Below, piece after piece: positions 1-63,619 of a DNA stretch of 64,000 nt (position 1 is the stretch's first letter; each line of letters begins with the position of its first letter). The notes below the pieces were generated by a model. The model did not search any database and was not told the origin of the DNA. It saw only the letters and a program-made list of their open reading frames with translations. Both the position numbers and the translations under genes were made by a program. This DNA comes from Callorhinchus milii (taxonomy: Eukaryota): positions 27,962,001 through 28,026,000 of the forward strand of contig NW_024704747.1 in the NCBI RefSeq assembly GCF_018977255.1, written 5' to 3'.

Positions 1-2969
1 TCAACTTTGTGCAGATTTTACAGTAAATAATTTTGTCTAAGTATTGATCACACAGCAAGTGTACTCTTAAGTTAAATAAAACTGCATTGTAGGTTTGTAA
101 TTGCACTTTGCAGACGTCAAAAGCCTTTGTTGTTGAATTAACGAGAGGAGACATCAAACCACGGAGGGAGAATTTCCTTAACCCTTTCATTGGAGTGTAT
201 CGGGCTTCAATTTGAATTTGGATAAAATTCTCTGCTGCATAATATACTGCTGTCATCGTACTTTTGTATAATAGTTGCAAGAATGAATTTAAAAGTTTGT
301 GGCTCATTCTCTAAAGCTAAAACCAATACAGTTAAACAAAAAAGCATCAAATTTCTAAACCATGAACTGAAGTGATTTTTAACCACTATTTTAAATGTTG
401 CTATCTCAGCATTTCTGTAAGCGTGGTACCTAATGAAAGGGTTAAAGACCGCTTGGTGATGTTATTGATTGCTGACGATATCCAAATATCTGTATTTTGT
501 AACAAAATTAATAAAACAATATTTTATACAACATCTCACTATTTGTTGTCACTGGCTCCAAAGTTGACCGATACATAAACAAGACTAATCTAATTCTGTT
601 TGGGTGCTGATTTCAAGCTGTAGTGCTTAAAGAATAATATATAGTGCTATATCAAATGCAAGGATTAATTATATTATTTAAGGTCCATCTTGGGTTTGAA
701 ATACCAGCCTTCTATCACTAGAGGTCTTCAGTGAGCTATAGGAATAATGGCAGGAAAGATTGATGGAGCATTTCAAAACACCACATGACCTGGGGACCAT
801 TTCTCAGTGAATTATTCATTCAATTATTACAGTCACTTGCTTAAAAGTTCTGTACGTTTGCTCTGTACATAAACAGGACTGGTCAGAAAAAAAACTAATT
901 TAATCAGTAGGAATGCATTCACATCAGAGTTTTGTAGCTGAGATTACCAGGTTGTAAATTGAGGAACTGATTAACAACAAACAACTTACATTTATACAGT
1001 GCTCCTCACCCAGAGAGCTTGATTAACAGAAAACCGGGTTCATCAAACTCCTTGTTTAAGGTCTTCAATTAAATTCAGTTTGAAATTATGACATCTGCGT
1101 AGTGGGCATTGGCATTAATAGATCTGTCAAGATATAGCGAACTGGTGAACCAGGCTCGATGGGCTGAATGACCTCCTCCTGTTATCCTATTCTATTGATT
1201 GGTAATTTAATAATTGCAAGCGCTTTTTTTGTGCTTAATTTGCATACAAATTCCTTAAGCAAATCGAGTGTCTTTCACGTTTGGATCAGCCTCGATCCAC
1301 AAGGAAAGCTGAACTTGCCCAACCTTAATCATTTTCACTGTTGGCTATCACCTTTCTAGCTTTATTAGAGGATCATAGACAATGGCACAATTTCCGACTG
1401 GAACGTAGGAAATTCCCTAAGGCTTACAGACGCCGATCTGTTCAAAGTGTGGTACAGCAACATTCCACCAGTCTGTACAAGTAAACAATCTAGACTGTGT
1501 TAACTTCGAAACTGTTTTGAAATAAATAGTCTACATTCAGGAATGCTTAGGGGGAGGCTGACACATTCGTGCCAAAAAAATTAATGTTTTGTTCATAATT
1601 ATAGAATATTCTCCCTTTCGTGTTATGCAAAAGCTTGTTTCACGTGAATGTTAAGCCAGTGAACGCAAGTCCCAAGGCGTACCTAATAAACACATTTAAT
1701 TACGAATGACCAGAACACTCTTGGATTTTTTCCACTAAAGTGTATACAGAAATAAGTTGGACAGTTTGGGATATTTACTTGGCAATGGATCAGGTCAAGA
1801 GAAGACATGCAAAAGAGTTATTGAAGTTTAACAGCAATTTTTGTTTACCAAACATAATAGTGAACCAAATGCATCTAAGGGTGCCACAGATTGATTGTAT
1901 AAAGCTTTCTTGAATAAGAAGTATCTGTTGGAAGGAATTGTTTGATGAAATGCAGGCTTGCTTCTGTGTCCTGTTGACTATTTTGTGTAATTAATCCTCC
2001 CGCCCTTCCTGTCACAGATAAACAAACACCGATCTTAGGACACTTGAGTTGCACTGTTCCCTCAGACACATGTAACTTGTAGGCACAGAATGGTCGATGA
2101 ACAATGTAAAGGTTTACAGGTTTTTAATTAGTGTCAATGAATACATACAATCTCTTTTCATCATAATAATAATGGTGTTTAATGATAGCCATGGGCATGA
2201 TACATGGCTTAATATAACGATCCATATAAAATACTACTATATTGTATTGCAACTTTAAACTGTTATCCATCTTTGTTTCATAACACAATTTGAGCAATGG
2301 ATTCCCATCTAGTTAGAGCAATCGGAGAAGGAGCTTGTTAATTCTGTGACATTTACTCAGTCAGCTGGTAGTTCTGCCTGATCATCTTAATCTGAATGAG
2401 GCTGCCAGATGGTTGGATGAATTATAATTCAATTCATATTCGCATCATTGTTAGTTCTCTCTGAAACGTCCTAGCTGCATGTTACAAGCTGCATGTTAAT
2501 TGTGTGTATGAGCTTCAATTCAACACTACATTACACTGGTGGTAATTAGTATAACTTCTGTACACTTGAAAGAATAATTATCATTATTTCAGGGAAGGAA
2601 AATGAGCTCAGTGTCCTTTATAATAATAACTTTCCTATCTTATCTCAGCACAAGCAATGGAGAATCAAAATCAAACTTGGGAACTACAGTATATGAGACT
2701 TTTCCATGGAAAGATCTTTCATTGCGTGAATAGCCTTGCAACAAGTTAACATTGTCGGATTCCTCCATGGCAAAGCTCAATGTAGAATTAAACTAAACAG
2801 ATTCATTGGTTTGATACTGAGTTTGTTTAGTCAGAGAGCGATGGTGGTTCAACACGTTTGAAGACAAAATACACAGTCACCACACTTTACAGTGAATCCT
2901 GTGAAGCGCTTTAGAGATGCTCCCAATGTTAAAGGCGCTATATTGAATATAAGAATTATTACTTTATTT

Positions 2970-3180
2970 GTTCCCTGACTTTTGGGTGGAGGTAGAAAAT
3001 CAGCCGTGGGTTCCCACTCCTGTTTGCTATCCAGTGATTTTTGGGTGTGTGTAGGTGTGTTCCAGTCAAATAGTTTGCTGATGTTTGTAGTCCAGACTCA
3101 CACATGAAGAGTCATCACTTGAATGAGAGCAGTTGGTGCCTGTGGACCTGTACACTACAGAGTCAGCATCTTCAGGAGAC
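2970..3180 (+). mobile_element. Ancient SINE (AmnSINE2-like) fragment; others at about 23740-23940, 30150-30210 and 59750-59915
   Basis: AAAATCAGCCGTGGGTTCCCACTCCTG..GCTATCCAGTGA...CTCACACATGAAGA..CCTGTGGACCTGTAC; parts are shared among the copies. Confidence 0.6.
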
Positions 3181-4214
3181 AAGTGGTGAAAATTTGCGGA
3201 GGATTTAAACAAAAAGAAAGTTACTATCTCATGGGTTATTGATATACATAAAAGTTTCACCACTTTGTGTGAGCGACAATCCTCTATTTTAACCTTAAAT
3301 ATTTGTAATGTACGTTTGCAAAAAAGGCTAAACTGTGATTTGACTTATTTAAAAGCACATCATGGTTTTTTTACTTAAAGATGGAAATTGATATTGTTCA
3401 GCCCTGATTATAAATAAATAAATACTGTCTGTGTTTAGTGTCTAATCACTGCTTCTCTTCCTGAGAGATAAAGTAGTTAACGTCTCACACAAATAATAAT
3501 AATGTTTTACATTATACTATCAGCATTCTGTATAAAAATAATGAGTTACAAAAGCAAATTTGTCTGGTTAAAGAGTGAACTATCCTAAACCTCAACCATA
3601 AAAAAATTAAAATATACAACATGTCAAACAAAGAATAAAATGTAGACAGGAAGACTTAATGTGAACTTTTAAAAATCTTAATAAATGTTTGGATTTTTCT
3701 TTAAACAGGCGAGCAAAAGATTTTCTATAAACAAACAAATGCGCATTTTTTTGTTTATTTCCTTCTTGTTGTTTTGAAATTTTCTTCCTCGTTTCAATTT
3801 ATTTTTGCGTGACCTGGACAGGTACAAATTGGTGTGTAATCTGCGCTAATCCAGAACCATCTGAATCCAGGACAAGTTGATTGAATCCAATTGCCTCGTA
3901 AACCTACAACCGACTCATATACTCAGACATCGCTGAATGAGGCCTTGTTGAACTTGACCTCAGTGAGTACAAACACACAGAGAAAAACACCGCCTTAAGC
4001 CAAGCTGTTCAGCTCGTCCCTCAGGCTCATTTTCCATGTGTTTCTACTTCGCTTGTGTGAAACGTATGAACCAGAACTGGCTATATTCCCACGTGGGACC
4101 CAGATTACAAAGTCCACACGCAGCAGCTGCGATGCAGGAAAGTGCGCAGATGTGACGTTTCCAAGTGGAGGAACACTCTGGAGCCTGCGACCACCCAAAA
4201 ACAGAGTCTCCTAA

Positions 4215-4856
4215 TGTAATAATACATTAAGAGCCCGAATTAATAAGTTATCCTTGAATCATTTCAGGTCATCAGATACATTTCTTTTTCTCATGCCGAA
4301 ACACGGCAGAGAATTAGCTGGAACACAAGAGCAAAAAAGGCAATCCGGCAGAAATTTCTAAACGGCAGAATATTCCAAGGATTGTAAAATCCAATTGAAA
4401 TCTGCACAATAGGATTAATAATAAAAATCATAATAATAATAATAATAATCCTTGCATTTGATATAGCGCCTTATCACGTCTTCTAGATGTCTCAAAGCCC
4501 TTCGCAGAATATACTGTAAAGTGAATTGACTGTAGATTTGTAGGTGAAACGCAGCAGCCAATTACACACAGCAGCGTCCCCACAAACAGTCGTGGATTGA
4601 AGTGACCAATTTTTTTTTTTTTTCTTGAGGGATTATTATCAGGCGTGTGTGGAGTAAGGAAACTTGCCCAATGTTTCGCCCCGCCTGGAATCGAACCCAG
4701 TTCTCTCGCTTGCGAGACGAGTGCTCTAACCACTGAGCTACAGGTCTCCACACAGGATTCTTTCTGCATGCGAAAAAGAACTGTACCTGATGACCTGAAA
4801 CCATGCTGCATTTTTCAGGATAACTTATTCATTCGGGCTCTTAATGTGTTATTACA
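4215..4856. repeat. About 85-bp inverted repeat pair (4215-4300 and 4762-4856); possible MITE with an inserted SINE
   Basis: TGTAATAATACATTAAGAGCCCGAAT..TTTCAGGTCATCAG..TTCTTTTTCTCATGC is the reverse complement of 4762-4856 apart from a few substitutions and one small indel. Confidence 0.8.
4430..4757 (-). mobile_element. tRNA(Ala-like)-derived SINE with L2-type tail; complete ends, short internal variant
   Basis: Minus strand shows A box TAGCTCAGTGGTTAGAG, anticodon-like loop CTCGCAA, B box GGTTCGATTCC, the GGGCAAGTTTCCTTACTCC box, and the tail ...GGCGCTATATCAAATGCAAGG(ATT)n. Confidence 0.9.
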
Positions 4857-17210: not shown

Positions 17211-18845
17211 GATCAAAGTGTTGGTGCTTGTTTGTGTGATTCCCATGATTCTTATTTTGTGCTCGACTTGATTCCGTTTGAATCTAATTGTGCAACTTCC
17301 CAAAAAGTAGAGCGTCAGTACAGTGGTGGGACAGTTCGATCTGACAGCCAGACATAGTGATGGCTTCCAACAACAACAACAGCTTGATTTATATAGTGCC
17401 TCTCACATCTGGAGGATGTCCCAAATGCAAGCTGAATGAATTAATTCCACTCCAACCTTGTAGAGTACAAGTGAGGTTGCTCAGTGTCCACACAAGTACC
17501 ACCACCCTCCCAGATCACTGTGGAACTGGATTGCATGTTCCACGCTGAAAGTTGGCATGGATATTTCTGCATTTACACCTTTCCCCCACTGAATCTAATA
17601 TCTGAATGATACAGTATATAGTTTGGGACAAGACATGGGCAAGCAACTGCCAGGATGGTGGAAGACAAACTGGATGGACCTGGGTCTTCTTTCGTCTCGC
17701 AGTTCTTATATCCACCTGGGATTATGAATTAAAATTCTGTCCTAGTAACGACTGCATAAGTAGTTTTGCTGATGTTTCTGTGAATGGTAATTGTGTACTG
17801 CGGTCTCCAGCTAATAAAGAGGGAATATTATATGAGGGTAGGAGTAATGCAAATTTTATTTCCGTGAAAAATGATGAAGTGATGAGCGATCTACAGTCTC
17901 ATGAGTAGAAATGAAAATAATGTTGCACAGACCTCTGCAAGGCATTGTTCTTAATAGTCAGTTGGTCGTATTATTTTCTGTTTCTTAGTAATGTGATACT
18001 CACCTGCGGGTAGTTCCCATGTTGATAGCATTGCACAGTGTATTGTAGAGTTGATTGACAAAGGTCCTCTGCATGATTAGAAGCTTTTAAAAGAAAGAAC
18101 CTTATCTATATTTAGACTTAAAAAAATGTGAATATTGTTTGAAGTGTACAAACGAAACCAGTGATTTATGGTTCATAAATACTGCTCCCTTCATGGCAAT
18201 TTTATTGGCTTTCATTTTGCAGATGTGAAGCGAAAATGCAATTCACTTTTGATTGCCCTAGTAGGTTATCTGTCTCTGACAGTTACACATTAAAGCAATA
18301 ATGAACTGCCAGTAATGTCATATCCTTCCACATATTATCATATGTGTGTCTTTAAAATATATCGTATTATACAGATGTGTGTGTGTCCTTTTAAAGTAAC
18401 TTTTTTTTAAAATGCAAGTTGAGAAATATGGAATAATTGATCAAACAACTAATCAATCAAACAACATGGAGAAGTTACTCGTAAGAACGTAGAGTAAGCA
18501 TAGCATGAGAAGAGCTCACATTGAGGCCACTCCTAACAATCCATGTACAGTCATCGATTCCTCACAACATTGTACAACCTCAGGAGGAAGTTGAATAACT
18601 GTGTGTACGCGTTAGTCTGTGAGGTTTTACCTTGTCCCCTCAGGTAACTGAGTCAAGCCTGCAGGATATGAATCTTACATTACGATCTGCGTAGTCAGCT
18701 ACGACTCATTACATTCCGCACATGTGGTTCACATGTTCCCTTGTGTTGATGAGACTCGTTCCGATTCATTTTCAACGAGATATCAATGCCCTCTCTCTAA
18801 ATCGGTAGTCATGCCACACGACTTACATCAATTTCAAATAGTTTT

Positions 18846-18955
18846 GGGAACGCTCAGCAGGTCAGGCAGCATCTACGGAGAAAGGAAAGTGAGTCAATGT
18901 TTCGGGTCTGTGACCCTTCATCAGAGCTTCGCCTGACCCTTCTGCAGTATTTTGC
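18846..18955 (-). mobile_element. Second Penelope-like short element with hammerhead core (18891-18924) and an inverted remnant (18931-18955)
   Basis: Minus strand reads CUGAUGA-A-GGGUC ACA GACCC-GAAA-C-AUU-GACUC. The following GCCTGACC..TCTGCAGTATTTTGC is reverse-complementary to other parts of the same element (compare 63564-63619). Confidence 0.6.
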
Positions 18956-20197
18956 GTTCTGTGGATTGCGAAATCTCTTCTAGGAGGTGGTTTCCAATTG
19001 GAGTTGATGTGCCTGACTCCAACATGGCCCCCGTCTGATTGAGGCTGACACATCGCCAACTTTTGAACTTTTTTTTAACAAAAAGTTGTGAGTTTAAGCT
19101 CCTGGATCTTACTAACTTTTTAAGAATCCTGACGGAGTCTTCGTTAACTTCAAGAATTAACTGGCATTTGACAGCAATCACAGCACCAATGCTTACCATT
19201 AATTAATTACATACGATTAATTAGTATGTTGTTTCACCCGCGAAATACACAGTCAATCCACTTTACAGGATATTCTGTGAAGTGCTTCGAGATGTCTCGA
19301 CGACGTGAAAAGGGCGCTATATCAAATGTAAAGATTATTATTACCTCTGCACCATGCATGTGTGGAAATCTACTTTCCTGACACTCCATTGCAGACCAGA
19401 ACAGTTTGGAGCTGATGGTATATAACAATGCTTTTCAGGCTCCAAATTGCTGTTAGAGAGTCACAACATCAAATTGGTAGATAGCTGTCAGTAGCGTAAC
19501 TGTAGAAGTACAATACAATACAAAATAACATTTGCAAAGCGCCTTTCACGTCGGGAGGACATCCCAAGGAGCTGGATATAGCATTACCTCTCTGATTGGT
19601 GACTTCATTGATGTGAAAATGCTTGACCCTCTCAATTTAGCATCGCATTTTATGACCGTATTGATTATTTGAGAGGAAACAGCTTGATATTGAGATGATA
19701 CGTTCAGCGAGGAAGCTACTCAACTTTTTTTGGACACAGACAAAATACACTAAACTGATAACTCATGACTCCAAGAGCAAAGAGCTCAGTAACAAGTTAT
19801 CCGGAGTGGTGAGGTAGGCATATGTATAAATACATTAAAAAAATCAAGGCCAGGGTATTGACATTATGATGACTTAACTGGTGGTGATACGTTAAGCCAG
19901 GGTCGAGTTATGAAACATTTACTGCATATTGGGAGCAGTGATAGGATGCAGAAGTCAGCCAAAGAATCATATAGATGGTGTGTATGACTTTTCATTCAGC
20001 ACTTGCATTTCCTACAGGTCTGTAAAGAATAATCATTAAACATAAGAGAAAGAAAATCAAATCACAAGGCCGTTCTATAAATAAGCACTTACTATTGGAG
20101 CAAATTTGCCTACAAAGTATACACAAAATCTGCAGGTAGAAATATTTTAAGATGTTTCTAATAGTGACGTTATTCCTTAAATTTAACATGTCACAAG

Positions 20198-22002: not shown

Positions 22003-22333
22003 ATAATAATAATAATAATCCTTGCATTTGATATAGCGCTTTTCACGTCGGGAGGACGTCCCAAAGCATTTCACAGAACACACTCTAAAGTGAATTGACT
22101 GTATATTTGTGGGCGAACGCGGCAGCCAATTGCGCACAACAATGTCCCACAAACAGTCATGGATTGAAAATGACCAATTTATTATTGTTTTTGGTTTTGG
22201 AGGGATTATTATTAGGCTCTGTGTGGAGTAAGGAAACTTGCCCAAGGTTTCACCCTCTGCCTGGGATTGAACTCAGGTCTCTCACTTGCAAAGCGAGTGC
22301 TCTAACCACAGAGCTACAGGACTCCACGCAGGA
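22003..22333 (-). mobile_element. tRNA-derived SINE, complete ends (short variant)
   Basis: tRNA-like head with a TGC anticodon loop at about 22260-22325, body, and (ATT)n tail. A possible TTATA target-site duplication lies at 22001 and 22335. Confidence 0.9.
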
Positions 22334-38600: not shown

Positions 38601-41600
38601 ATTGCAAAATAGCCCTCACATGCATTTTCCTCTCACCGTAGTCATTATTGATTGGATTACAATTAACTGCTCTACTGTATATAATTTGACTTCAGTTTGG
38701 TTTCCTTACCAGAGTGCTTTGTTCTCATTAGACAAGACTACAGATATAATAGTACTCCTTATCTTTGATATAGCGCCTTATCACGTGGTTAAGATGTCTC
38801 AAAGCATTTCACAGGATCTACCGTAATGTGGATTAACTGTAGGTGAAATGCAGCAGTCAATTGGGCCCAGCAATGTCTCACAAACAGCCACAGAGTGAAT
38901 GACTATATAATGGGGCATGTAAGGGGCTATTATACGTCACATGTAATCTGTATGTGAAACATGTGCACAGAGGGAATTACAGGTGCCTTTAATTATGACA
39001 TTTCAGTAAAGCGGTGCCCTAGATGTTAGGTGAGGATAAGAGAGACTTGGGTGCGATGCACTCTATGGTAAAGAAGCCCTTTGAAACCCACTGTCTAAGT
39101 TGAGATGCCGCACATTTATGACCTGTCACTGTCTAAGATTGACATTGTATTATTGCATTAGAAAAGAATAACTTCAGTCATTAACTGTTCTGATAATCTT
39201 TCAGTAGGCTACTATTAGATAGGCTTCAGCTATTTTTAGATGTCTTATAACTTGAAGGAACTGACAAAGAACGTATCGGTAATCCAACACTGTAGGCCCA
39301 GTTGTTTCACTGCAGTGTTGAAAGCCTTCCTTCTACTTGTGTGCTATTTTGTTAAGCGTAACGGTGCCATTACTGCTGTTTAATTCCACGCTGGGCTGCA
39401 CTGACAAGACTGAATGAACTACAATCGATTGATCCTTAATCAAAAGCCGCCAGTTTGCTCAAAAGAGCAGTTCCTTCTTCGGAGATAAATTATTGATGTG
39501 ACTCTGGATCATTTGATATGAAAAGGAAAAAAAAGTTACATTAGCAGCCAAGGAATATATAACGGAGTTGATTTGTTTGAAAAATCAATGTGACACATTG
39601 TTGTAAGGACATGATGCAGTATTTCATTCTTAGTAGGGTGTTCCTTGCTCTATGGAAACTTAGGTTCCTCAGATATTTAGGGGGCAAATGGAAATCTCTG
39701 GTTCCTGGTAATAATCTTTCTTTTCATAACTAATATTTTGAGGGTATGAGGCATTTGAGGTCAAAAGTGAAATATTTGGAAAGCCGGTTCAAACAAAGTC
39801 TTGATTGTATCTGAATGCTCTGGAAATGCATGCAGCCTAGAGTACGTCAACCCTAATATCTTGTGGTGTCTACTTTACCCACAGCTGGATTCATGGAATG
39901 TGCAGTTTTATAAGGAGGAGTTGCCCATTATTAGGACCCGTTTCGATTTCAGACTTCGATTTCGATTTCTCACCCCAAGCCATTTCCCTCGTCTCTCAGA
40001 AACCAACTAAATGTGACATAAGATTATCCTACGACCCTTATATATCTTACATAATTCGCAAAATATTAAGGAAGATAATTAATTCACATCTGGATTACGT
40101 CAGATGTATAGACTAGTTCCGCATCCTCCTGAAAATGCTCCGTTACTGTCAAGCACTCTGGGACACTACCCTGCATGAGGGGCGCTGTGTGAAGGCAAGT
40201 TGTTGTTGTTGTTGAATTCTTCTTAAACTCACATCTGGTCCAGAGGTGAGAGACGATCCAACTGAATGTTATCATTCAGGTCGATACCATTTTGTTTCAA
40301 TTCACCCGTTTGGGATTTGGTCTAGCAGAACGCTCGAAAATGAACACAAGACTTTTTATTATCTCTTATTTTAAAGGACGTCAGTCCAGTCATACGAAAT
40401 GTTTGAGTAATTAAAGAAGCTGTAAGCTGACTATAGAATCAAGAGTGCAAGTGGATCTAACAATACTTTCTGTACCAGGGTTCACTCACCATTTGTGCAA
40501 ATCAATAACCTCTCTACTCATATACGTTTCACTGCAGATTGCTGTTTGTACCCAGCTGTGTCTATTTTAGGTGTTTGCTGTAAAATGTAGAATATGAATT
40601 TTCAGAAAAAAAATAAAAAAATGAGGTTAAGGTTGCAATCAATACTAACCATTCTGGTGAAATGACTTGAAATTGCCTGTTCTGCAGGCTGAAAAGAGAT
40701 TGCCTTACACTTGTTCTTGTCATAGCACAATTAGGGCTTGAGAAAAGCCAACTGGTTGCCAAAGTATGATTTCTATCCAATTTATCATGATCTCATCCTC
40801 AGGAAGTGAAATATTGATGATTGCAGCAACTGTAGGGCAGTCGGTCAATTATATTTTTCAAATGTTGGCAATTTGTGTTTCAGCTCAGGAGTGGTGATTA
40901 CTTGGTACACTGTAATAAACAGTTACTGTATATAGTAGAGAGTACCGGTAACTCCTAAAACAAAACCTTTAGTTACTCTCATCTCACCCATAAAATACAA
41001 TCACTTTACAGTAAATACTGTGAGGGCTTTTGAAGACATCCTCCCACGTCTCAAATATATAGAATGTTCACTATATACTGTAGATACAAGTTGTAGAATT
41101 TCCCTCGTTTCAATTTACTTAAAAAATATGAGATCTCTTTCTATTTATACCACTGTGAAAGACGCAATATGTTTTACAGGATATTGCTTTGTAATTGGAA
41201 ACAGTTTAGTGAAAATCCGACTTCCAGTTGGAATTTCCTTTTTATAATATTTCACAGGATAATACTGTATTAGGAGTTTATAGCTTAAACCGTGATTGCA
41301 AATTAGGATAGTTGGCAACACTTACACTTTTTTGCCTACTTACACGGATTGTAGATTAGTTTTAAAACATTCAGTGTTTGAGCAAAATCAACCACTAAAC
41401 TCAGTCTAATATAATATGGAAAAACACAAAGGGAAATGCTATGGCTGAACACACTGTCGAATTCTGCCTGAAATGTTTTCTGATATTCTCCGTGACACAG
41501 TATTTGACTTGTTGTTGCTCAAAGAATACATATTTTATCCGATTCCTATTTAAATTCCTGGCCAGAATAGGACTGAAGGATGAGGATTATTTATGTGGGT

Positions 41601-42664
41601 AATTACATATGCCTTCTAATTTTTTTTATATACCAATGGGTGATAAATCAATAATTTAATAAATTTAACTAAAAATCAATGGCATATTGCAGCAAAATAT
41701 TTGACCGGGCGTATTTTATGTTCTTACACCTGGTAAGAAGCATTATGTTTGCATTTTAACCATATTAGGTTTTTGTGAAGGCCTTCAATCAATTTGAGAA
41801 GCTGAACTCTGTGGGAATTTAGTTTGGAAGCAATAACAAAAGAAATGGTAATTATCAGATCAATTTTCTTTACACGCTATTCATTTTCCTTTCCTGGTTT
41901 GTCTAGGTTGGGATATCTGAAAACATTAGAGTGAAATTAGTTCACGTTCTCGGCTGAAATTCTTTGAATTCTTTGGGCTGTTTGGGATTTACTGTACATG
42001 ACGGGATGCCACAAAGGAGGCCTCTGACAGACAATGGCTGTTCTGCATGAAAAGCAACTATTGATGCCTTCAAACCCACTGCATCTAGCAAAACAGTAGC
42101 TGTTTTATGTTTGTGCTGATGGAGCCTGGCACTTAAATTGATCATTTTCCAACATCCATCCTGGGAGCAGAGTCAGAACTCCAGCTTGCAATTGCAGACG
42201 TATTTTGCTCCACAGTCAGTGTATTTTGTGGCTTCAATTTAGGGCAATCAATGTCTAAGATGAATGTCCGAGCACTGGGATGAACTCAATTAATTAGTCA
42301 TAGCAGCACAAACCAAATCCAGTACCATAACTGGAAGAAAGCAACTAGTACGTGATTTTTTTTTTGGTCATATTTCTTTTCCTGGATTTTACATAAGTTA
42401 TATGCTTGTCGCTCATAAAATGGACAACTTGCCATTTGGGTGGTGCAAGGCACTCTGAGGCCTGCAGTGCAATTGGTTGCTTTATGTTGACTGTTGGCAG
42501 CAAGCCCTGGCTGACATGCTGATTTGGCTCCTTGGGTTGATTATGCTGTCGTCATTTTGTGCTCAGCCCTGTGTTTATGTGCAGGAACAGGAGAGTGAAA
42601 GGAGCAGTAAAACCTTTCACTATTTTCCATTAATATTTCAGCAACTGTGAAGGTGATTCAAGGT

Positions 42665-42745
42665 CAGCCCAGCTCGTTGATAGCACTTTCAACCCCGAGT
42701 CAGATGGTTGTGGGTTCAAATCCCACGTCTGGACTTTGAGCTCTT
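42665..42745 (+). mobile_element. tRNA-derived head of a DeuSINE-like element
   Basis: GCTCGTTGATAGCAC..GAGTCAGATGGTTGTGGGTTCAAATCCCAC..GACTTTGAGC provides an A/B box layout. Confidence 0.6.
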
Positions 42746-42875
42746 AGTCTAGTGTGGGGTGGATCGCACTGAGCCAAAGGCCTTCTGGTTGTTTTATAAA
42801 AGCTCATAATAATAATATAAATGCAGCATAAAGTGATAGTTCAAGTGACAGCACTTGAGGCAACCCTTTAATAGT

Positions 42876-42977
42876 TATAAAAACAGAAGTCGCTGGGAAC
42901 ACTCAGCAGGTCAGGCAGCATCTATGGAGAAAGGAAAGTGAGTCAACCTTTCGGGTCCACGACCCTTCGTCAGGACC
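42876..42977 (-). mobile_element. Short Penelope-like (pLTR-derived) element with hammerhead core and candidate 8-bp TSD
   Basis: Closely similar to 18846-18925. Flanked by TTAATAGT at 42868-42875 and 42978-42985. Confidence 0.65.
42941..42977 (-). ncRNA. Minimal type-I hammerhead ribozyme-like motif (degenerate stem III)
   Basis: Minus strand reads GGUC-CUGACGA-A-GGGUC GUG GACCC-GAAA-G-GUU-GACU. It has both conserved core boxes, a perfect 5-bp stem II and a 4-bp stem I. Confidence 0.6.
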
Positions 42978-44519
42978 TTAATAGTAATTACAGGTGTGAT
43001 AGTCTGCTGCCATTGATGGGGCAAGAAGCTGGATTTAAAACATCCCGTCTTGCTGGTGTTCTACAGCAATAAAAGCTAAATCATTCGAATTCTATCTAGA
43101 AGTACAATCCCGGTTGGATTCGCAATTCGATGGTCGTTCCACCCCCAACACTTTAAGAACCTTTCCAAAACCGAGCAAGTCCATTTATCATGGTGATATC
43201 ATACCTAATTAAAACGCTAGTTTTACATCATTTGAAAATGTAAATCACCAATTGCCAAACTACATTTAATGGATCACTCAAGCAACGCAAATCAGTTATT
43301 CTTTACAAAAAAATTTTTTCGCTTCCCTCTGAAAGGCAGGTTGCATTAATGTATGCTGAATTGAATTGAATTTTGCCCAATGTGGATAACCGTGATTACA
43401 ACCTAGACTTTAGTCTAATTTAAATGCCATTAATGGCAGTCACACACGCAGAGTGCTGTGCTGTTTTGTTTGACAGTGATGTTGCTTTCGTGCAGGGCTA
43501 TAATTGGTTTGTTGCTGTTCCCACTGAGGGTAAGGTTTACGTTCTTTCCTGTTACACTCCCCTCACCCGGCCTCAGCAATTCCAATTAACAACTCCGCTG
43601 TTTCAAGTCTGTGAAAAGGATGGCCTTGTAATTTTATGAGCTGTAAAACGCTACAGTAAAAACATTGTCCTTTTCCCAAGAAGCACAGTTCTTGGCAACG
43701 GTTTACCTGTCTTGCTTAACTCTGTCCTCGCCAATATAATAATAATCCTTGCGTTTAATATGGCGCCTTATCACGTCGTTGAGACAGCAACAACAAAATT
43801 AGATTTGTATAGTGCCTTTCATGTCGGGAGGACGTCTCAAAGTGCTTCACCGAATACACTGTAAAGTGAATTGATTGTATATTTTGTGGGCAAAACACAG
43901 GAGCCAACTGGACACACTGGGAGTGAACATAGATGGGTTTGACTGGCCTTAGGTTGAACTGGAACTGAGCAATCCTAAGTGTGAGCCCTTCAGCCGTTCA
44001 TGCAAGTCTCAGATTTGAGCAAATGAGGGTTAACACAGGTCATTAAATTGACCTGAGTTCAAGTGAGATAGAAAGAGAGAGAGAGAGAGCATCAAGTAGT
44101 GGCTCGCAAATTCAAAATAATGAACATGCAGATCGTTCAGCAATTGCAGTCTGAGAAAGTTTTAACAACTGATTTGACCATCTTTCATGCAAAAAGGCGC
44201 GGAAAATTAAAATTATATTTTTTTAAAAATGCCCTCGTGCTCCCTGACCTTCCTTACTGACAAGTGGCATGTCTTATATTGGGTAACGGAGGATAAAAAA
44301 TAGCCAATAGATAAAAAAATATTTTATCCTTTCAGAAGCAATTTTTGTTCCCAGTTCCCGCCCGAATCTGATTCTAATACATTCTTGCAAAAAATGTGGA
44401 AACTTCCTCACACATGAGGTGTTTTTACCAAAGATGTGACTGTAAAATATATGTTAGCGTTAAAAGCAAAGGCTAGCCAGCACTCTGTGTGTGTATGCCT
44501 TGGGACGTCCTCCCGACAT

Positions 44520-44655
44520 GAAAGGTGCGATACAAATGTGATCTTGTTGTTGTAATCACTAATAAGATGACAAATATTGAATTTTGAGAAAGGTGCGATA
44601 CAAATGTGATCTTGTTGTTGTAATCACTAATAAGATGACAAATATTGAATTTTGA
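44520..44655. repeat. Perfect 68-bp tandem duplication
   Basis: GAAAGGTGCGATACAAATGTGATCTTG...AATATTGAATTTTGA occurs at 44520-44587 and 44588-44655. Confidence 0.95.
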
Positions 44656-45319: not shown

Positions 45320-46048
45320 CAACAACAACAACTTGGATTTATATAGTGCCCTCCACACCGGATGGCGTCTCAGAGCGCTTTACAGTAACGGATCCCGGGG
45401 CCGAGCCAGGCGGAGGGGGGGGGCGAGCCGGGGTGGGGGGGGGGGGGGGGGTTAGTGGGAGGGGGGGGGAAGGTGACCAAAGGAGCGGTCGAAAAGAAAG
45501 GTCTTCAGCAGAGACCTGAAAATGGGAAGGGAGGGAGCGAGACGAAGGGAGTGAGGAAGGGAGTTCCAGAGCCTCGGGGCGCAGTGGCTGAAGGCACGGC
45601 CACCGAGGGTGGAGTGGAGGATTCGGGGGACGAAGAGGAGGCCAGACCCGGAGGAACGAAGGCAACGGGTACTGTTTTGAAGAGAGAGGAGGTCAGAGAA
45701 GTCGGGGGATGCAGAGGAGTGCAGGGACTTGAATACGAGGGTGAGGGTCTTGAAATGGATCCTCTCTGGGATAGGCAGCCAGTGCAGTCCTGCCAGGACT
45801 GGGTGGATAGGGGAGCGGAGTTTGGGGGTGGGGGGGGTGGGAGGGCAAGGACTGGGGGGATCGGGGAGTTGGGTTTGGTGCGGGTGAGAATGCGGGCGGC
45901 AGAGTTCTGAATGAGTTGGATTTTATGGATGGCAGTGGATGGGAGACCGGCGAGGAGGGCGTTGGAGTAGTCCAGCCGAGAGGTGACAAAGGCATGGACC
46001 AGGGTTTCAGCGGCTTTTGGGGAGAGGTATTGCCTCAATAAATGATGC
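45320..46048 (-). mobile_element. L2-clade LINE 3' fragment (ORF2 C-terminus, 3'UTR and (GTT)n tail)
   Basis: Minus strand gives [44 protein letters not shown], then in another frame [27 protein letters not shown]. These are diagnostic L2 ORF2 motifs. The tail reads AAGCGCTCTGAGACG..GGCACTATATAAAT..GTTGTT. Confidence 0.92.
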
Positions 46049-49000
46049 AAAGTTAATAATTAAGATTATATTCAAATGTCAGTGCCCAAGCCTGATGGTA
46101 TGAAAGTATAAAATGTGAATATAACAAAGTGCTACCTGCATAACCAATATCTGTAGGTACATAGAGTAGGAATTTACCCACTCGCTCATCGAACTTTGTA
46201 CATGAGGTTAATTATTACAGGACGAATAATAGTTAAGAAACCCAGAACTCCCAGGAAACAATCTTACGTCGAATTTAAGTCAGAATTTAAGAAAGTTTCA
46301 GGACCTTTGCAAGTCTCCTGATTCACGGCTAAAGCCGCTGTGCTTCCCGGCCCGTGATCACCTGATCAGAACTGAATAGAGCTTCTCAGTGAATCACTGA
46401 ATCTTGGCTCCTCTCTGATTTCTCATGCCTCGCTTAACCACTGGGGCGAGAAGACGCACAACACCGACTGCAATTCAACTGGGCTGAGGTGAAAGCTTTT
46501 TTCCAACAATTTTAAAGATGTCACCCAGCCAGTGTTCCACTGACCTACTATAAAGCAAAGGCAGTGACTGTGTGTCAGCTCCTCCGTAATGCAATGTGGC
46601 ATTTTTAGGGTACGAGTGCATTGTGGCTGCAGCATCTGAACATTTCACATCTGCTTGATTGCGTCCGCACTGAAATATTTAAGCACTTGGATATGGCTTT
46701 TGCCTGCTTTTTTTTTTCCAGCGCTTAATTGAAATTCAACCATAGGAAGTCCCGGGAGACGTGCATTGCCTTTTGAAGCTGTGAGACTGAAGGGAAAGGT
46801 TGTAGCTCAGTGTTTTAGCCAGCAGCAAACATCTGCGCTTAAAATGGAAGTGCCCTGCGCGTTTGCACTCAGCTCCTTTAGCCCATCTTTGCCTGTAATA
46901 ACTTGAATAGCGAGTCTGCTCTCACATCGAATAATGTGGGCCACAGCAGCGATGCAGGTAAAACACTGTACATTAGTGTTTCCTTGTAACGTACAAAAGA
47001 GCTTCTTCCTGTGAGTTTAGCCTTCAGCTGCCCTGCCAAGTCCCTCAAGATCATTCATCCATAAATCACAGGTCATTGCAAAGTGCTGACTTTTTTACAG
47101 TACAGCTGAATACTGTACTGACTCGAGTTACATAAATCTGAAAATATTTATCAGGTAATGCAAAGTAGATGTTCCTTTAACCAAGTTACCGTATTTATAT
47201 GTACTATATGTGGAGCAGGTTTCGTGCAAATTATTTTCCGTTGCGTTGCTTTTATTTCCAGTGCAATGCAAAATGCAAAGTTTATCTTTGAGGAATGTGA
47301 TTCCACACTGCGGAGATCAAAGGCACAGCACAATCCACGTGAAAGAGTTGCACTTTGAATTGTAAATGTGCTTTCATACGTGTTTCATCTGTTCCGTTTT
47401 TCTTTTATCCAGCTGAAGATGTACTGGCATGTAGTTCTAGGTCTGTGAGACAGATCACATCCCCCCCTAATCCAGTTTAAAACGGCATGACTATATTTCC
47501 ACAATCTTAATCCCTCGGTTTAATTGTATACTTGTTCCCATTGGGAACAGGGGGCAAGTTTCTGAATCTTACGTGGTGCCCTGCAGGCTTTTTTTTATAA
47601 TCAAGGGCAAACATACAAGGGCAAATCATTTAAAAAAAACACTATTGCACATACGAAAGATTATTGTGCGTAGGTACAGATAGTCAGTTCTCTCGTTTTT
47701 GTACTGTACTTGGATATTCTGCAGAATATGCCTTTTTTTATATAGAAAGCTGACACTTTGCCAACCAGTGAGCAATGAATTCTATAATCATAATAATAAT
47801 CCTTGCATTTTGTATACCGCCTTATCACGTCTTCGAGACGTCTCAAAGCGCTTCACAGAATATACTGTAAAGTGAATTGACTGCATATTTTTGCAGGTGA
47901 AATAATAAGGCCCGAAAATGCAAACCATCTGAAATAATATCGGGCTGTAAATGAAGATTGTGTGTACTTGAATTGAAATAAAAAGGCTAAAAAGGTGAAA
48001 ATAAAAGCGGAACCATTCAGTGTAATTTGAAGACAAACCGAGTGTGATGCCTGGAGTTCCGTTGATTGGAAGGTGTTGGGAGTCTTTTAAAGGCTAACTG
48101 CTCTGCTGAATATAGACTGGAAACGCAGGGGGAGATTAAGCACAATAAATGTAAAGGTGGTTACTTGTGATTTATCATTAACGGTTCTGTGGACATGTTT
48201 AATGGTTCCGCCGTTGACACCTTCCAAATGCTATAAACCCCACCTCATCAACCAGACCTACAGTCTAGCAAATTTATTATTTTCAAGTTCCCATATTTAT
48301 CCATAAATAAACGCAATGAATATTTTATCGTGCATCCTGTCAGGACCCTAATTTTAATGTTTGTAGCCGGAATCCCAGAGGGTGGAGAAAAATTCTCAGC
48401 TACTAGCTGGTATGCAGGCTACGTGTCAATGGCTTGAATTGGGTATTGTTCCTTGTTCTGTGAAATACTGTATATCCACACAGTTAATTAAAATAATGTA
48501 ATGATTATCTGAAGGGGCACATTATTATACAGCATGAACTTAAAACGAATACACGTGGTAGTTAAATCAGTAACATCCAGTGTCTCTGTTAACCTGGGAT
48601 ATGGGGTCCTAGGGTATAGATTTCCTCTGGGATGTGATCCATGTCTTTTCCGTACCCTCCCCACCCCCCTTCTCTTCCCTCCCTCCTGATGGTCAGGTCC
48701 TAGAACTTTGGAGGAGCACAGTATCATGTACTGTACAGTCATTTGCCTTTTCTAGTACAATTGGCTGCCGCGTTTCGCCCACAAAATATACAGACAATTC
48801 ACTTTACAGTATATTCTGTGAAGCGCTTTGAGACGTGTCAACGTCATTCACTCTTGCAACTTCTGACATTTGAGCGGAGGTCCAATAGATCATCAATGTG
48901 AGAGATCACCTGTGTGTGAGTGTGTGTGTGAGTGGAAGATTTGATTCTTGCTGATCCGTTTACACATCGCTGCACACGAGACCCTCTTGTGCAATGAAGA

Positions 49001-63563: not shown

Positions 63564-63619
63564 GCAAAACACTGCAGATGCTGGAAATCTGAAATGAAAC
63601 CACTGGGAACACTCAGCAG
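63564..63619 (-). mobile_element. Third fragment of the same short element (no ribozyme core)
   Basis: GCAAAACACTGCAGATGCTGGAAATCTGAAAT..CTGGGAACACTCAGCAG overlaps the 42890-42910 sequence. Confidence 0.55.

What the first reader, a model, noticed from the sequence alone, without database searches (positions are those of the whole stretch)
42876..42985. About 100-bp interspersed element carrying a minimal hammerhead ribozyme core
Seen: the minus strand reads GGUC|CUGACGA|A|GGGUC-GUG-GACCC|GAAA|G|GUU|GACU, giving both invariant hammerhead boxes, a perfect stem II and a closing stem I. The element has 8-bp direct repeats (TTAATAGT) on each side. Known: Penelope-like retroelements carry minimal type-I hammerheads with a loopless palindromic stem III (GAAAC-GUH) that are proposed to act as dimers. 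Inference: this is a non-autonomous, ribozyme-bearing retroelement family. The two copies here imply a consensus GAAACGUU. This copy has G at that C position and may be inactive.
Basis: partly seen in the sequence, partly recalled or inferred. Interest (0 to 1): 0.7.

Follow-up and report, generated by a model that had tools for sequence, protein, structure and literature searches.

The report
Penelope retroelement stub with dead hammerhead
This 99-base insert is the end-piece of a Penelope-like jumping gene that has thousands of decayed copies in this genome; it carries that group's already described minimal hammerhead motif, in a mutated and likely inactive form, so it is an ordinary example of a known kind.

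Summary
Window 42879-42977 (minus strand) carries both hammerhead boxes, a 5-bp stem II and a 4-bp stem I, inside an 8-bp exact (11-bp with one mismatch) target-site duplication.

It is not a separate non-autonomous family. Longer copies run on, on the same strand, into a GIY-YIG endonuclease and a reverse transcriptase. One locus (L355) holds a whole hammerhead-ORF-hammerhead unit inside a 14-bp duplication. A CX4CX2C linker points to the Neptune/Nematis type of Penelope-like element. A 26-base tail word has 3,186 exact hits in the genome.

This copy's C-to-G change is rare (2 of 80 copies) and breaks the ACGU dimer palindrome. Copies decay neutrally. Between two subfamilies the core is unchanged and all stem changes keep pairing.

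One point is of some interest: 35 of 99 copies begin at the start of stem I and only 2 near the cut site, so uncut RNA was likely the template. Cleavage was not tested. The scan has noted this family many times on other DNA of this genome.

The parts
42879..42977 (-). 5'-truncated pLTR stub of a Penelope-like element (hammerhead plus 62 nt, without the optional ~35-nt tail)
   Evidence: 3 differences from the family consensus over 99 nt; its ends match the two commonest end classes of 99 copies
42941..42977 (-). minimal type-I hammerhead motif, stem I to stem I
   Evidence: sequence; pairs checked; matches the min-HHR description in PMC4209133
42967..42973 (-). core box C3-U4-G5-A6-N7-G8-A9 (CUGACGA), followed by the extra unpaired A at 42966
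42953..42965 (-). stem II, 5 bp (GGGUC/GACCC), with a 3-nt loop at 42958-42960
   Evidence: subfamily B changes the first pair from G-C to A-U
42945..42952 (-). G12-A13-A14-A15.1, then loopless helix III and the cleavage triplet; predicted cut between 42945 and 42944
   Evidence: position assigned by standard hammerhead numbering (established knowledge)
42948..42948 (-). C15.2 changed to G; breaks the ACGU palindrome
   Evidence: G in 2 of 80 tail-selected copies and 1 of the first 100 pattern hits; self-duplex -1.7 becomes +3.8 kcal/mol
42868..42878 (.). target-site duplication, 3' side of the element (8 bp exact, 11 bp with one mismatch)
42978..42988 (.). target-site duplication, 5' side of the element
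18845..18927 (-). second stub of the same family (G16.2 changed to A, stem I weakened), with inverted remnants of the tail just 5' of it (about 18931-18957)
63564..63619 (-). tail-only fragment of the same family, no hammerhead

Best explanation
The insert is a short retro-copy of the pseudo-LTR end of an autonomous, endonuclease-bearing Penelope-like element (likely Neptune/Nematis type), and its hammerhead motif is a passenger that is likely inactive in this copy. Shown: the family has the layout hammerhead, ~160 nt, ORF (RT, thumb, CX4CX2C linker, GIY-YIG with CCHH), 200-320 nt, hammerhead, tail; copies end at two 3' positions about 35 nt apart, often have an inverted partner, and carry target duplications. 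Inferred, by analogy with the anole element PAc: the GIY-YIG domain nicked AT-rich DNA, the RT started inside the element RNA at one of two sites downstream of the hammerhead, and copying stopped early. Inferred, less firmly (about even odds): the pile-up of 5' ends at the first bases of stem I marks the 5' end of an uncut transcript, so the stubs are run-off copies begun near the RNA's 5' end. In the parent element the loopless ACGU helix III would need a second hammerhead, or the element's protein, to cleave; this copy has lost that palindrome.
For: Linkage: 23 of 30 loci fetched with the endonuclease end have the hammerhead/tail downstream on the same strand. 40 distinct endonuclease-to-hammerhead segments were found, 38 with a spacer of about 206-323 nt. 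L355 and L356 carry hammerhead, N-terminus, RT, thumb, GIY-YIG and hammerhead in order; L355 has a 14-bp duplication around the unit. Protein: DKGG, RYIDD, CX4CX2C and VVYCIRCSRCGLLYIGE motifs. The linker was read in 19 of 44 loci, plus 1 spurious match; PMC8557442 passages say Penelope/Poseidon lacks it. Truncation gradient: 3,186 exact tail words, 1,444 endonuclease candidates, 201 RT candidates, 34 for the ORF's 5' part; these searches differ in kind. Ends in 99 copies: 3' ends 44 at +91..104 and 48 at +121..133; 5' ends 35 at -7..0 (3.7 expected) and 2 at +27..31. Run X9 shows 55 contigs with loose ends at the same -3 position. An inverted partner is adjacent in 49 of 99; a duplication of 8 or more matching bases was found in 31 of 46 short inverted and 6 of 30 short solo copies, against 27 of 861 mismatched control pairs. 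Subfamily A vs B consensus: 22 changes plus one gap in about 106 nt of UTR, 0 in 14 core positions, 3 stem changes that all keep pairing, 2 loop changes.
Against: No cleavage data exist for this family. No Rfam hammerhead model matches. Pfam support is weak: RVT_1 at E 1.6e-5 and 0.009 in 2 of 3 pieces, GIY-YIG at E 0.005 in 1 of 6, all below curated cut-offs; no PDB sequence hit. The tail (4 changes in 100 nt) is at least as conserved between subfamilies as the hammerhead (5 in 37), so the hammerhead does not stand out from its downstream neighbour. Covariation rests on one subfamily split, and C-to-T at position 11.1 also arises by CpG decay (43 of 217 windows). No extra G, the expected cap signature, is seen before short copies: G in 4 of 25. 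The 99 copies all come from the first 27 Mb of one contig and include both arms of some inverted pairs. No tree was built, so the clade rests on one motif.
Confidence: 0.9

Rival explanations
1. The ~100-135-nt inserts are a distinct non-autonomous, SINE- or retrozyme-like family with its own master, mobilised by the Penelope protein.
For: The 5' and 3' ends are sharply preferred and short copies are very abundant. Stubs are 7 of 9 B-type but 23 of 41 A-type copies.
Against: This stub differs from the consensus of ORF-linked copies at only 3 of 99 positions. B-type copies also extend into UTR and endonuclease sequence (L343, L345, L348). 5' ends also form a continuum through the hammerhead, UTR and ORF. 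No head-to-tail arrays of the short unit were noticed in the loci read (not searched systematically), whereas non-LTR retrozymes are defined as tandem repeats (bioRxiv 2026.07.22.740005).
Confidence: 0.07
2. Same element, but the 5' pile-up at stem I is an RT stall or microhomology joining site at the C-rich tract just upstream, or reflects a 3' splice site there, and does not mark the RNA's start.
For: No cap-derived G. The end spreads over -6 to -2. Many junctions join to an inverted partner through short shared bases. The sequence at -4/-3 looks like a splice acceptor, and the D. virilis intron ends at the 5' end of helix I (PMC4209133).
Against: A spliced template should leave shared exon sequence upstream of stubs, and none was seen by eye. 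No GT..AG joint is among the 15 of 37 joints shown. A structure-caused stall would be expected before the fold, not just after it (inference). The sequence around -4 fits an initiator consensus (recalled, not tested).
Confidence: 0.45
3. This copy is a working ribozyme co-opted by the host at this locus.
For: All invariant core bases except 15.2 are intact, and stem I gains a C-G pair. One run guessed to be RNA (X5) has long contigs across the region.
Against: Helix III cannot form (AGGU is not self-complementary). The predicted best fold pairs the 5' end with stem II, at -13.0 against -10.1 kcal/mol for the hammerhead-like fold. The copy is solitary, and no folding signal exceeds shuffles (z -1.2). 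X5 is not on record as RNA. No protein-coding exon was recognised in 148 open frames scanned.
Confidence: 0.02

Closest known systems
Minimal hammerheads (min-HHR) in pLTRs of metazoan Penelope-like elements (Cervera and De la Pena 2014, PMC4209133; parts 1-2 of 4 read)
   Same: Type I; short helix I (4 bp); extra base between 9 and 10.1; G10.1-C11.1; palindromic 15.2-16.2 with no loop 3; thousands of dispersed single motifs from truncated elements; opposite-strand pairs close together.
   Different: Helix II is 5 bp (7-8 bp in the Schistosoma families described). The cleavage triplet is GUU. Subfamily B has A-U at 10.1-11.1. This genome's family is not named in the parts read; the supplements were not seen.
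Neptune/Nematis clades of endonuclease-positive Penelope-like elements (Craig et al. 2021, PMC8557442; passages read)
   Same: C-terminal GIY-YIG with CCHH; CX2-5CxxC linker; DKG motif; partial tandems; inverted 5' partners; optional 30-40-bp tail; target duplications.
   Different: The clade was not confirmed by a tree, and Neptune was not told apart from Nematis. No intact ORF was seen among the copies scored.
PAc, Poseidon element of Anolis carolinensis (Frangieh et al. 2024, PMC11167929; parts 1-2 of 4 read)
   Same: Two internal RT start sites downstream of the hammerhead that define the tail; AT-rich targets; both strands cut and extended; uncut RNA is the main substrate; no reads end at the cut site.
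   Different: In PAc the ORF starts at stem II. Here the likely start codon lies about 164 nt after C3, so hammerhead and tail sit in the 5' UTR. PAc is of the Penelope/Poseidon clade, which lacks the linker.
Non-LTR retrozymes (bioRxiv 10.64898/2026.07.22.740005; part 1 of 5 and passages read)
   Same: Type I hammerhead; derived from Penelope pLTRs; non-coding.
   Different: Retrozymes are head-to-tail tandem repeats. These stubs are solitary or head-to-head, and continuous in sequence with ORF-bearing copies.

Membership tests
min-HHR of metazoan PLEs | CUGANGA and GAAA boxes around helix II, closed by helix I (type I) | tested here: met
min-HHR of metazoan PLEs | Unpaired base between 9 and 10.1; G10.1-C11.1 | tested here: met
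   this copy and subfamily A; subfamily B has A-U instead
min-HHR of metazoan PLEs | Palindromic loopless helix III (15.1-16.1), family consensus | tested here: met
   ACGU in both subfamily consensuses
min-HHR of metazoan PLEs | Palindromic loopless helix III, this copy | tested here: not met
   AGGU at 42949-42946
min-HHR of metazoan PLEs | Located in the pLTR of a Penelope-like element | tested here: met
min-HHR of metazoan PLEs | Self-cleavage as a dimer or with protein help | not testable with these tools
   needs an in vitro assay
Rfam hammerhead families | Score at or above the gathering threshold | tested here: not met
   no hammerhead hit at gathering score or at E up to 10
EN+ Penelope-like element | One ORF with RT then GIY-YIG with CCHH | tested here: met
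   motifs in order in broken copies; Pfam hits below cut-off
EN+ Penelope-like element | Partial tandem forming pLTRs, inverted 5' partners, optional 30-40-bp tail | tested here: met
   L355, L356; 49 of 99 with an inverted partner; two 3' end classes
EN+ Penelope-like element | RT phylogeny within PLEs | not tested
Neptune/Nematis type | CX2-5CxxC linker before GIY-YIG | tested here: met
   19 of 44 loci; the other 25 gave no true match and were not examined one by one
Penelope/Poseidon clade | No CX2-5CxxC linker | tested here: not met
   the linker is present
Non-LTR retrozyme | Head-to-tail tandem repeats, each with a hammerhead | tested here: not met
   this copy is solitary; arrays elsewhere in the genome were not searched systematically
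PLE with spliceosomal intron in the pLTR | GT-AG intron ending near helix I | tested here: inconclusive
   acceptor-like sequence is present; no GT..AG joint among the joints shown from contigs

The most novel reading that the evidence does not exclude
Thousands of fossil stubs record the parent element's RNA: it began at the first base of hammerhead stem I, was copied uncut, and was reverse transcribed from two start sites in its own 5' UTR. The hammerhead would then be a cap-proximal switch that destroys or decaps the RNA rather than a step in making the template. This would be genome-scale in vivo support for the internal-initiation model, so far shown in vitro for one Poseidon element, now in a Neptune-type element.
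Probability: 0.4. Interest if true: 0.42.

Novelty: new member of a known kind. Interest (0 to 1): 0.17.

Why it matters
As a ribozyme find it matters little: minimal hammerheads in Penelope pseudo-LTRs are described, with thousands of copies per vertebrate genome, and this copy is a mutated leftover. The family is still a useful natural record. Its end positions say where reverse transcription started and stopped, and they show that self-cleaved RNA was not the main template. That bears on the open question of what the Penelope hammerhead is for.

Tried and rejected
Rfam: no hammerhead model hit. PDB sequence search with an RT piece: 0 hits. Pfam on 148 of 233 unmasked open frames (147 longest plus one LINE frame): only weak hits below cut-off, no host gene identified.

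The G at 15.2 looked common among the best hits. That was bias from using this copy as the query; unbiased samples show it is rare, so a 'G subfamily' was rejected.

Self-cleaved RNA as template: rejected, since 2 of 99 5' ends lie near the cut site. Cap-derived G: not seen. Spliced template: no shared upstream exon or GT..AG joint seen. Folding z-scores against shuffles are not significant for any of 4 sequences.

Sequencing runs: no RNA holder listed; all are contigs, so expression, starts and cut ends could not be read. No covariance model was built, because copies from two lineages under neutral decay cannot give independent covariation.

Lunse et al. (PMC5785218) is not held; I saw it only as cited in PMC6765202 passages. 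Five literature searches listed no paper on this family or on 5' ends clustering at stem I. Subscription journals, Repbase/Dfam and supplements were not seen, so the family may already be catalogued.

Full report
Observation. The minus strand at 42977-42941 holds a complete minimal hammerhead layout: 4-bp stem I, CUGACGA, an extra A, a 5-bp stem II with a 3-nt loop, GAAA, G, GUU and the stem I partner. The 8-bp repeat lies at 42868-42875 and 42978-42985 and extends to 11 bp with one mismatch, so the insert is 42879-42977. A second copy lies at 18845-18924 and a tail-only piece near 63.6 kb. The two boxes alone occur by chance (9 found, 4.9 expected). The box-to-box pattern occurs 2,173 times in the genome against 121 for its reversed control. 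Rfam has no matching hammerhead model.

The family. The window lies in a 991.5-Mb genome, G000, with vertebrate-like CpG depletion. A 26-base word from the tail has 3,186 exact hits, a lower bound on copy number. Copies that extend 5' run through a pyrimidine-rich UTR into the end of a GIY-YIG endonuclease. Of 30 loci fetched with that protein end, 23 have the hammerhead or tail downstream on the same strand. Further upstream lie thumb and RT motifs. L355 carries hammerhead, N-terminus, RT, thumb, endonuclease and hammerhead in order, with internal deletions, inside a 14-bp duplication; L356 shows the same order. The likely start codon is about 164 nt after C3 (inferred from frame). A CX4CX2C linker was read in 19 of 44 loci; by passages of PMC8557442 this marks Neptune/Nematis rather than Penelope/Poseidon. 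Pfam hits are weak and below cut-off. No open frame long enough for the whole ORF appeared among 150 scored candidates in each of two searches: the longest were 826 aa (a fusion to a LINE frame) and 470 aa. The family looks extinct, though only part of the candidates were scored.

Conservation. I took 99 of the first 100 tail-word hits, which are chosen without regard to the hammerhead. Position 15.2 is C in 64, T in 13, G in 2 and A in 1 of the 80 that cover it. In 50 copies that span the motif without indels (8 more dropped for indels), 12 keep the whole core and 6 keep core and stems. In 39 A-type copies, core CpG positions differ in 37 of 156 cells, non-CpG core positions in 11 of 390, and other non-CpG positions in 36 of 780. 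This is mostly neutral decay after insertion. The informative comparison is between masters. Subfamilies A and B differ at 22 of about 106 UTR positions plus a gap, at none of 14 core positions, at 2 loop positions, and at 3 stem positions that all keep pairing (G-C to A-U; U-G to U-A). They differ at only 4 of 100 tail positions. This supports a selected fold, but from one split only, and the tail is as conserved.

This copy. It differs from the consensus at 3 of 99 positions. The change at 42948 turns ACGU into AGGU, so the dimer helix cannot form (self-duplex -1.7 to +3.8 kcal/mol). The two 5' changes favour a rival hairpin, -13.0 against -10.1 kcal/mol. It is solitary. It is very likely inactive; this is a prediction.

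How it arose. 3' ends fall in two classes, 44 of 99 at +91 to +104 and 48 at +121 to +133 (the reference stops at +133). This is the optional Penelope tail, which PMC11167929 ties to two internal RT start sites. An inverted partner is adjacent in 49 of 99. Duplications are found in 31 of 46 short inverted and 6 of 30 short solo copies, against 27 of 861 control pairs. For 5' ends, 35 of 99 lie at -7 to 0, about ten times the background rate (3.7 expected), 41 lie inside the hammerhead or just after it, 23 lie further upstream, and only 2 lie within two bases of the cut site. Run X9 shows 55 contigs leaving at the same -3 position. So cut RNA was not the usual template, as found in vitro for PAc. 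My preferred reading is that the RNA starts at stem I and that stubs are run-off copies begun near its 5' end. Against it, no cap-derived G is seen (4 of 25), and a stall or microhomology site remains about as likely. In D. virilis the start site lies 46 nt before an intron (PMC2377424 passages) whose end maps to helix I, so a splice site here is a further rival; no spliced joint was seen.

Comparison and verdict. The motif matches the min-HHR of PMC4209133 feature by feature at family level, and the carrier meets the structural definition of an endonuclease-positive Penelope-like element. It is not a retrozyme, because it is not tandem. Expression could not be judged. Earlier notes of this scan describe the same family at other places of the genome (143 fit). 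One proposes the same RNA-start idea, which I had noted before the look-up; that is not independent evidence. Verdict: a correct observation of an ordinary, known kind of element; interest 0.17.

Noticed in passing
L327-L334 (G000 contigs C126, C166, C180, C232, C400, C555, C594, C644) and five more hits on C752, C826, C856, C1023, C1477: Several other minimal-hammerhead families with GUC triplets and varied stems occur only on small contigs. 0 of 8 such loci share any repeat with the window, against 21 of 21 comparison loci, and CpG depletion is weaker (0.64-1.11). These contigs may be DNA of another organism in the assembly.
   Followed up: partly
L355 (G000:C6:15512000-15519000), 1320-3740: Whole pLTR-ORF-pLTR unit with a 14-bp target duplication; broken by deletions, stops and frameshifts.
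   Followed up: yes
L240 and L040: Sequence from about +170 to +200 (ORF start) is joined directly to pLTR sequence upstream of the hammerhead, as if by a template jump or a small circle.
   Followed up: no
L036, L044-L046, L048, L053-L056, L060: A third variant with a different tail segment (TC-rich) and the same hammerhead as subfamily A; probably another subfamily.
   Followed up: no
L363:1-120, just beyond the window's right end: A rearranged subfamily B copy with pieces in both orientations.
   Followed up: no
window 4676-4747 and 22261-22316 (minus): Rfam tRNA hits inside an abundant repeat; likely tRNA-derived SINE heads, not tRNA genes.
   Followed up: no
window 45452-46059 (minus): 3' part of a LINE reverse transcriptase, of the family that also interrupts several Penelope copies (for example L082, L093).
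   Followed up: no
window 41000-44525: Run X5 (RNA only by guess) has long contigs across this stretch, while X1 and X2 mostly do not; either tissue-specific transcription or DNA in that run.
   Followed up: no
L092:2-1627, L102:2219-2788, L078:2692-3258: Host coding sequence beside family copies: by eye a DNA ligase IV-like frame, an antigen-receptor V segment and a hexokinase-like exon (names recalled, not searched).
   Followed up: no
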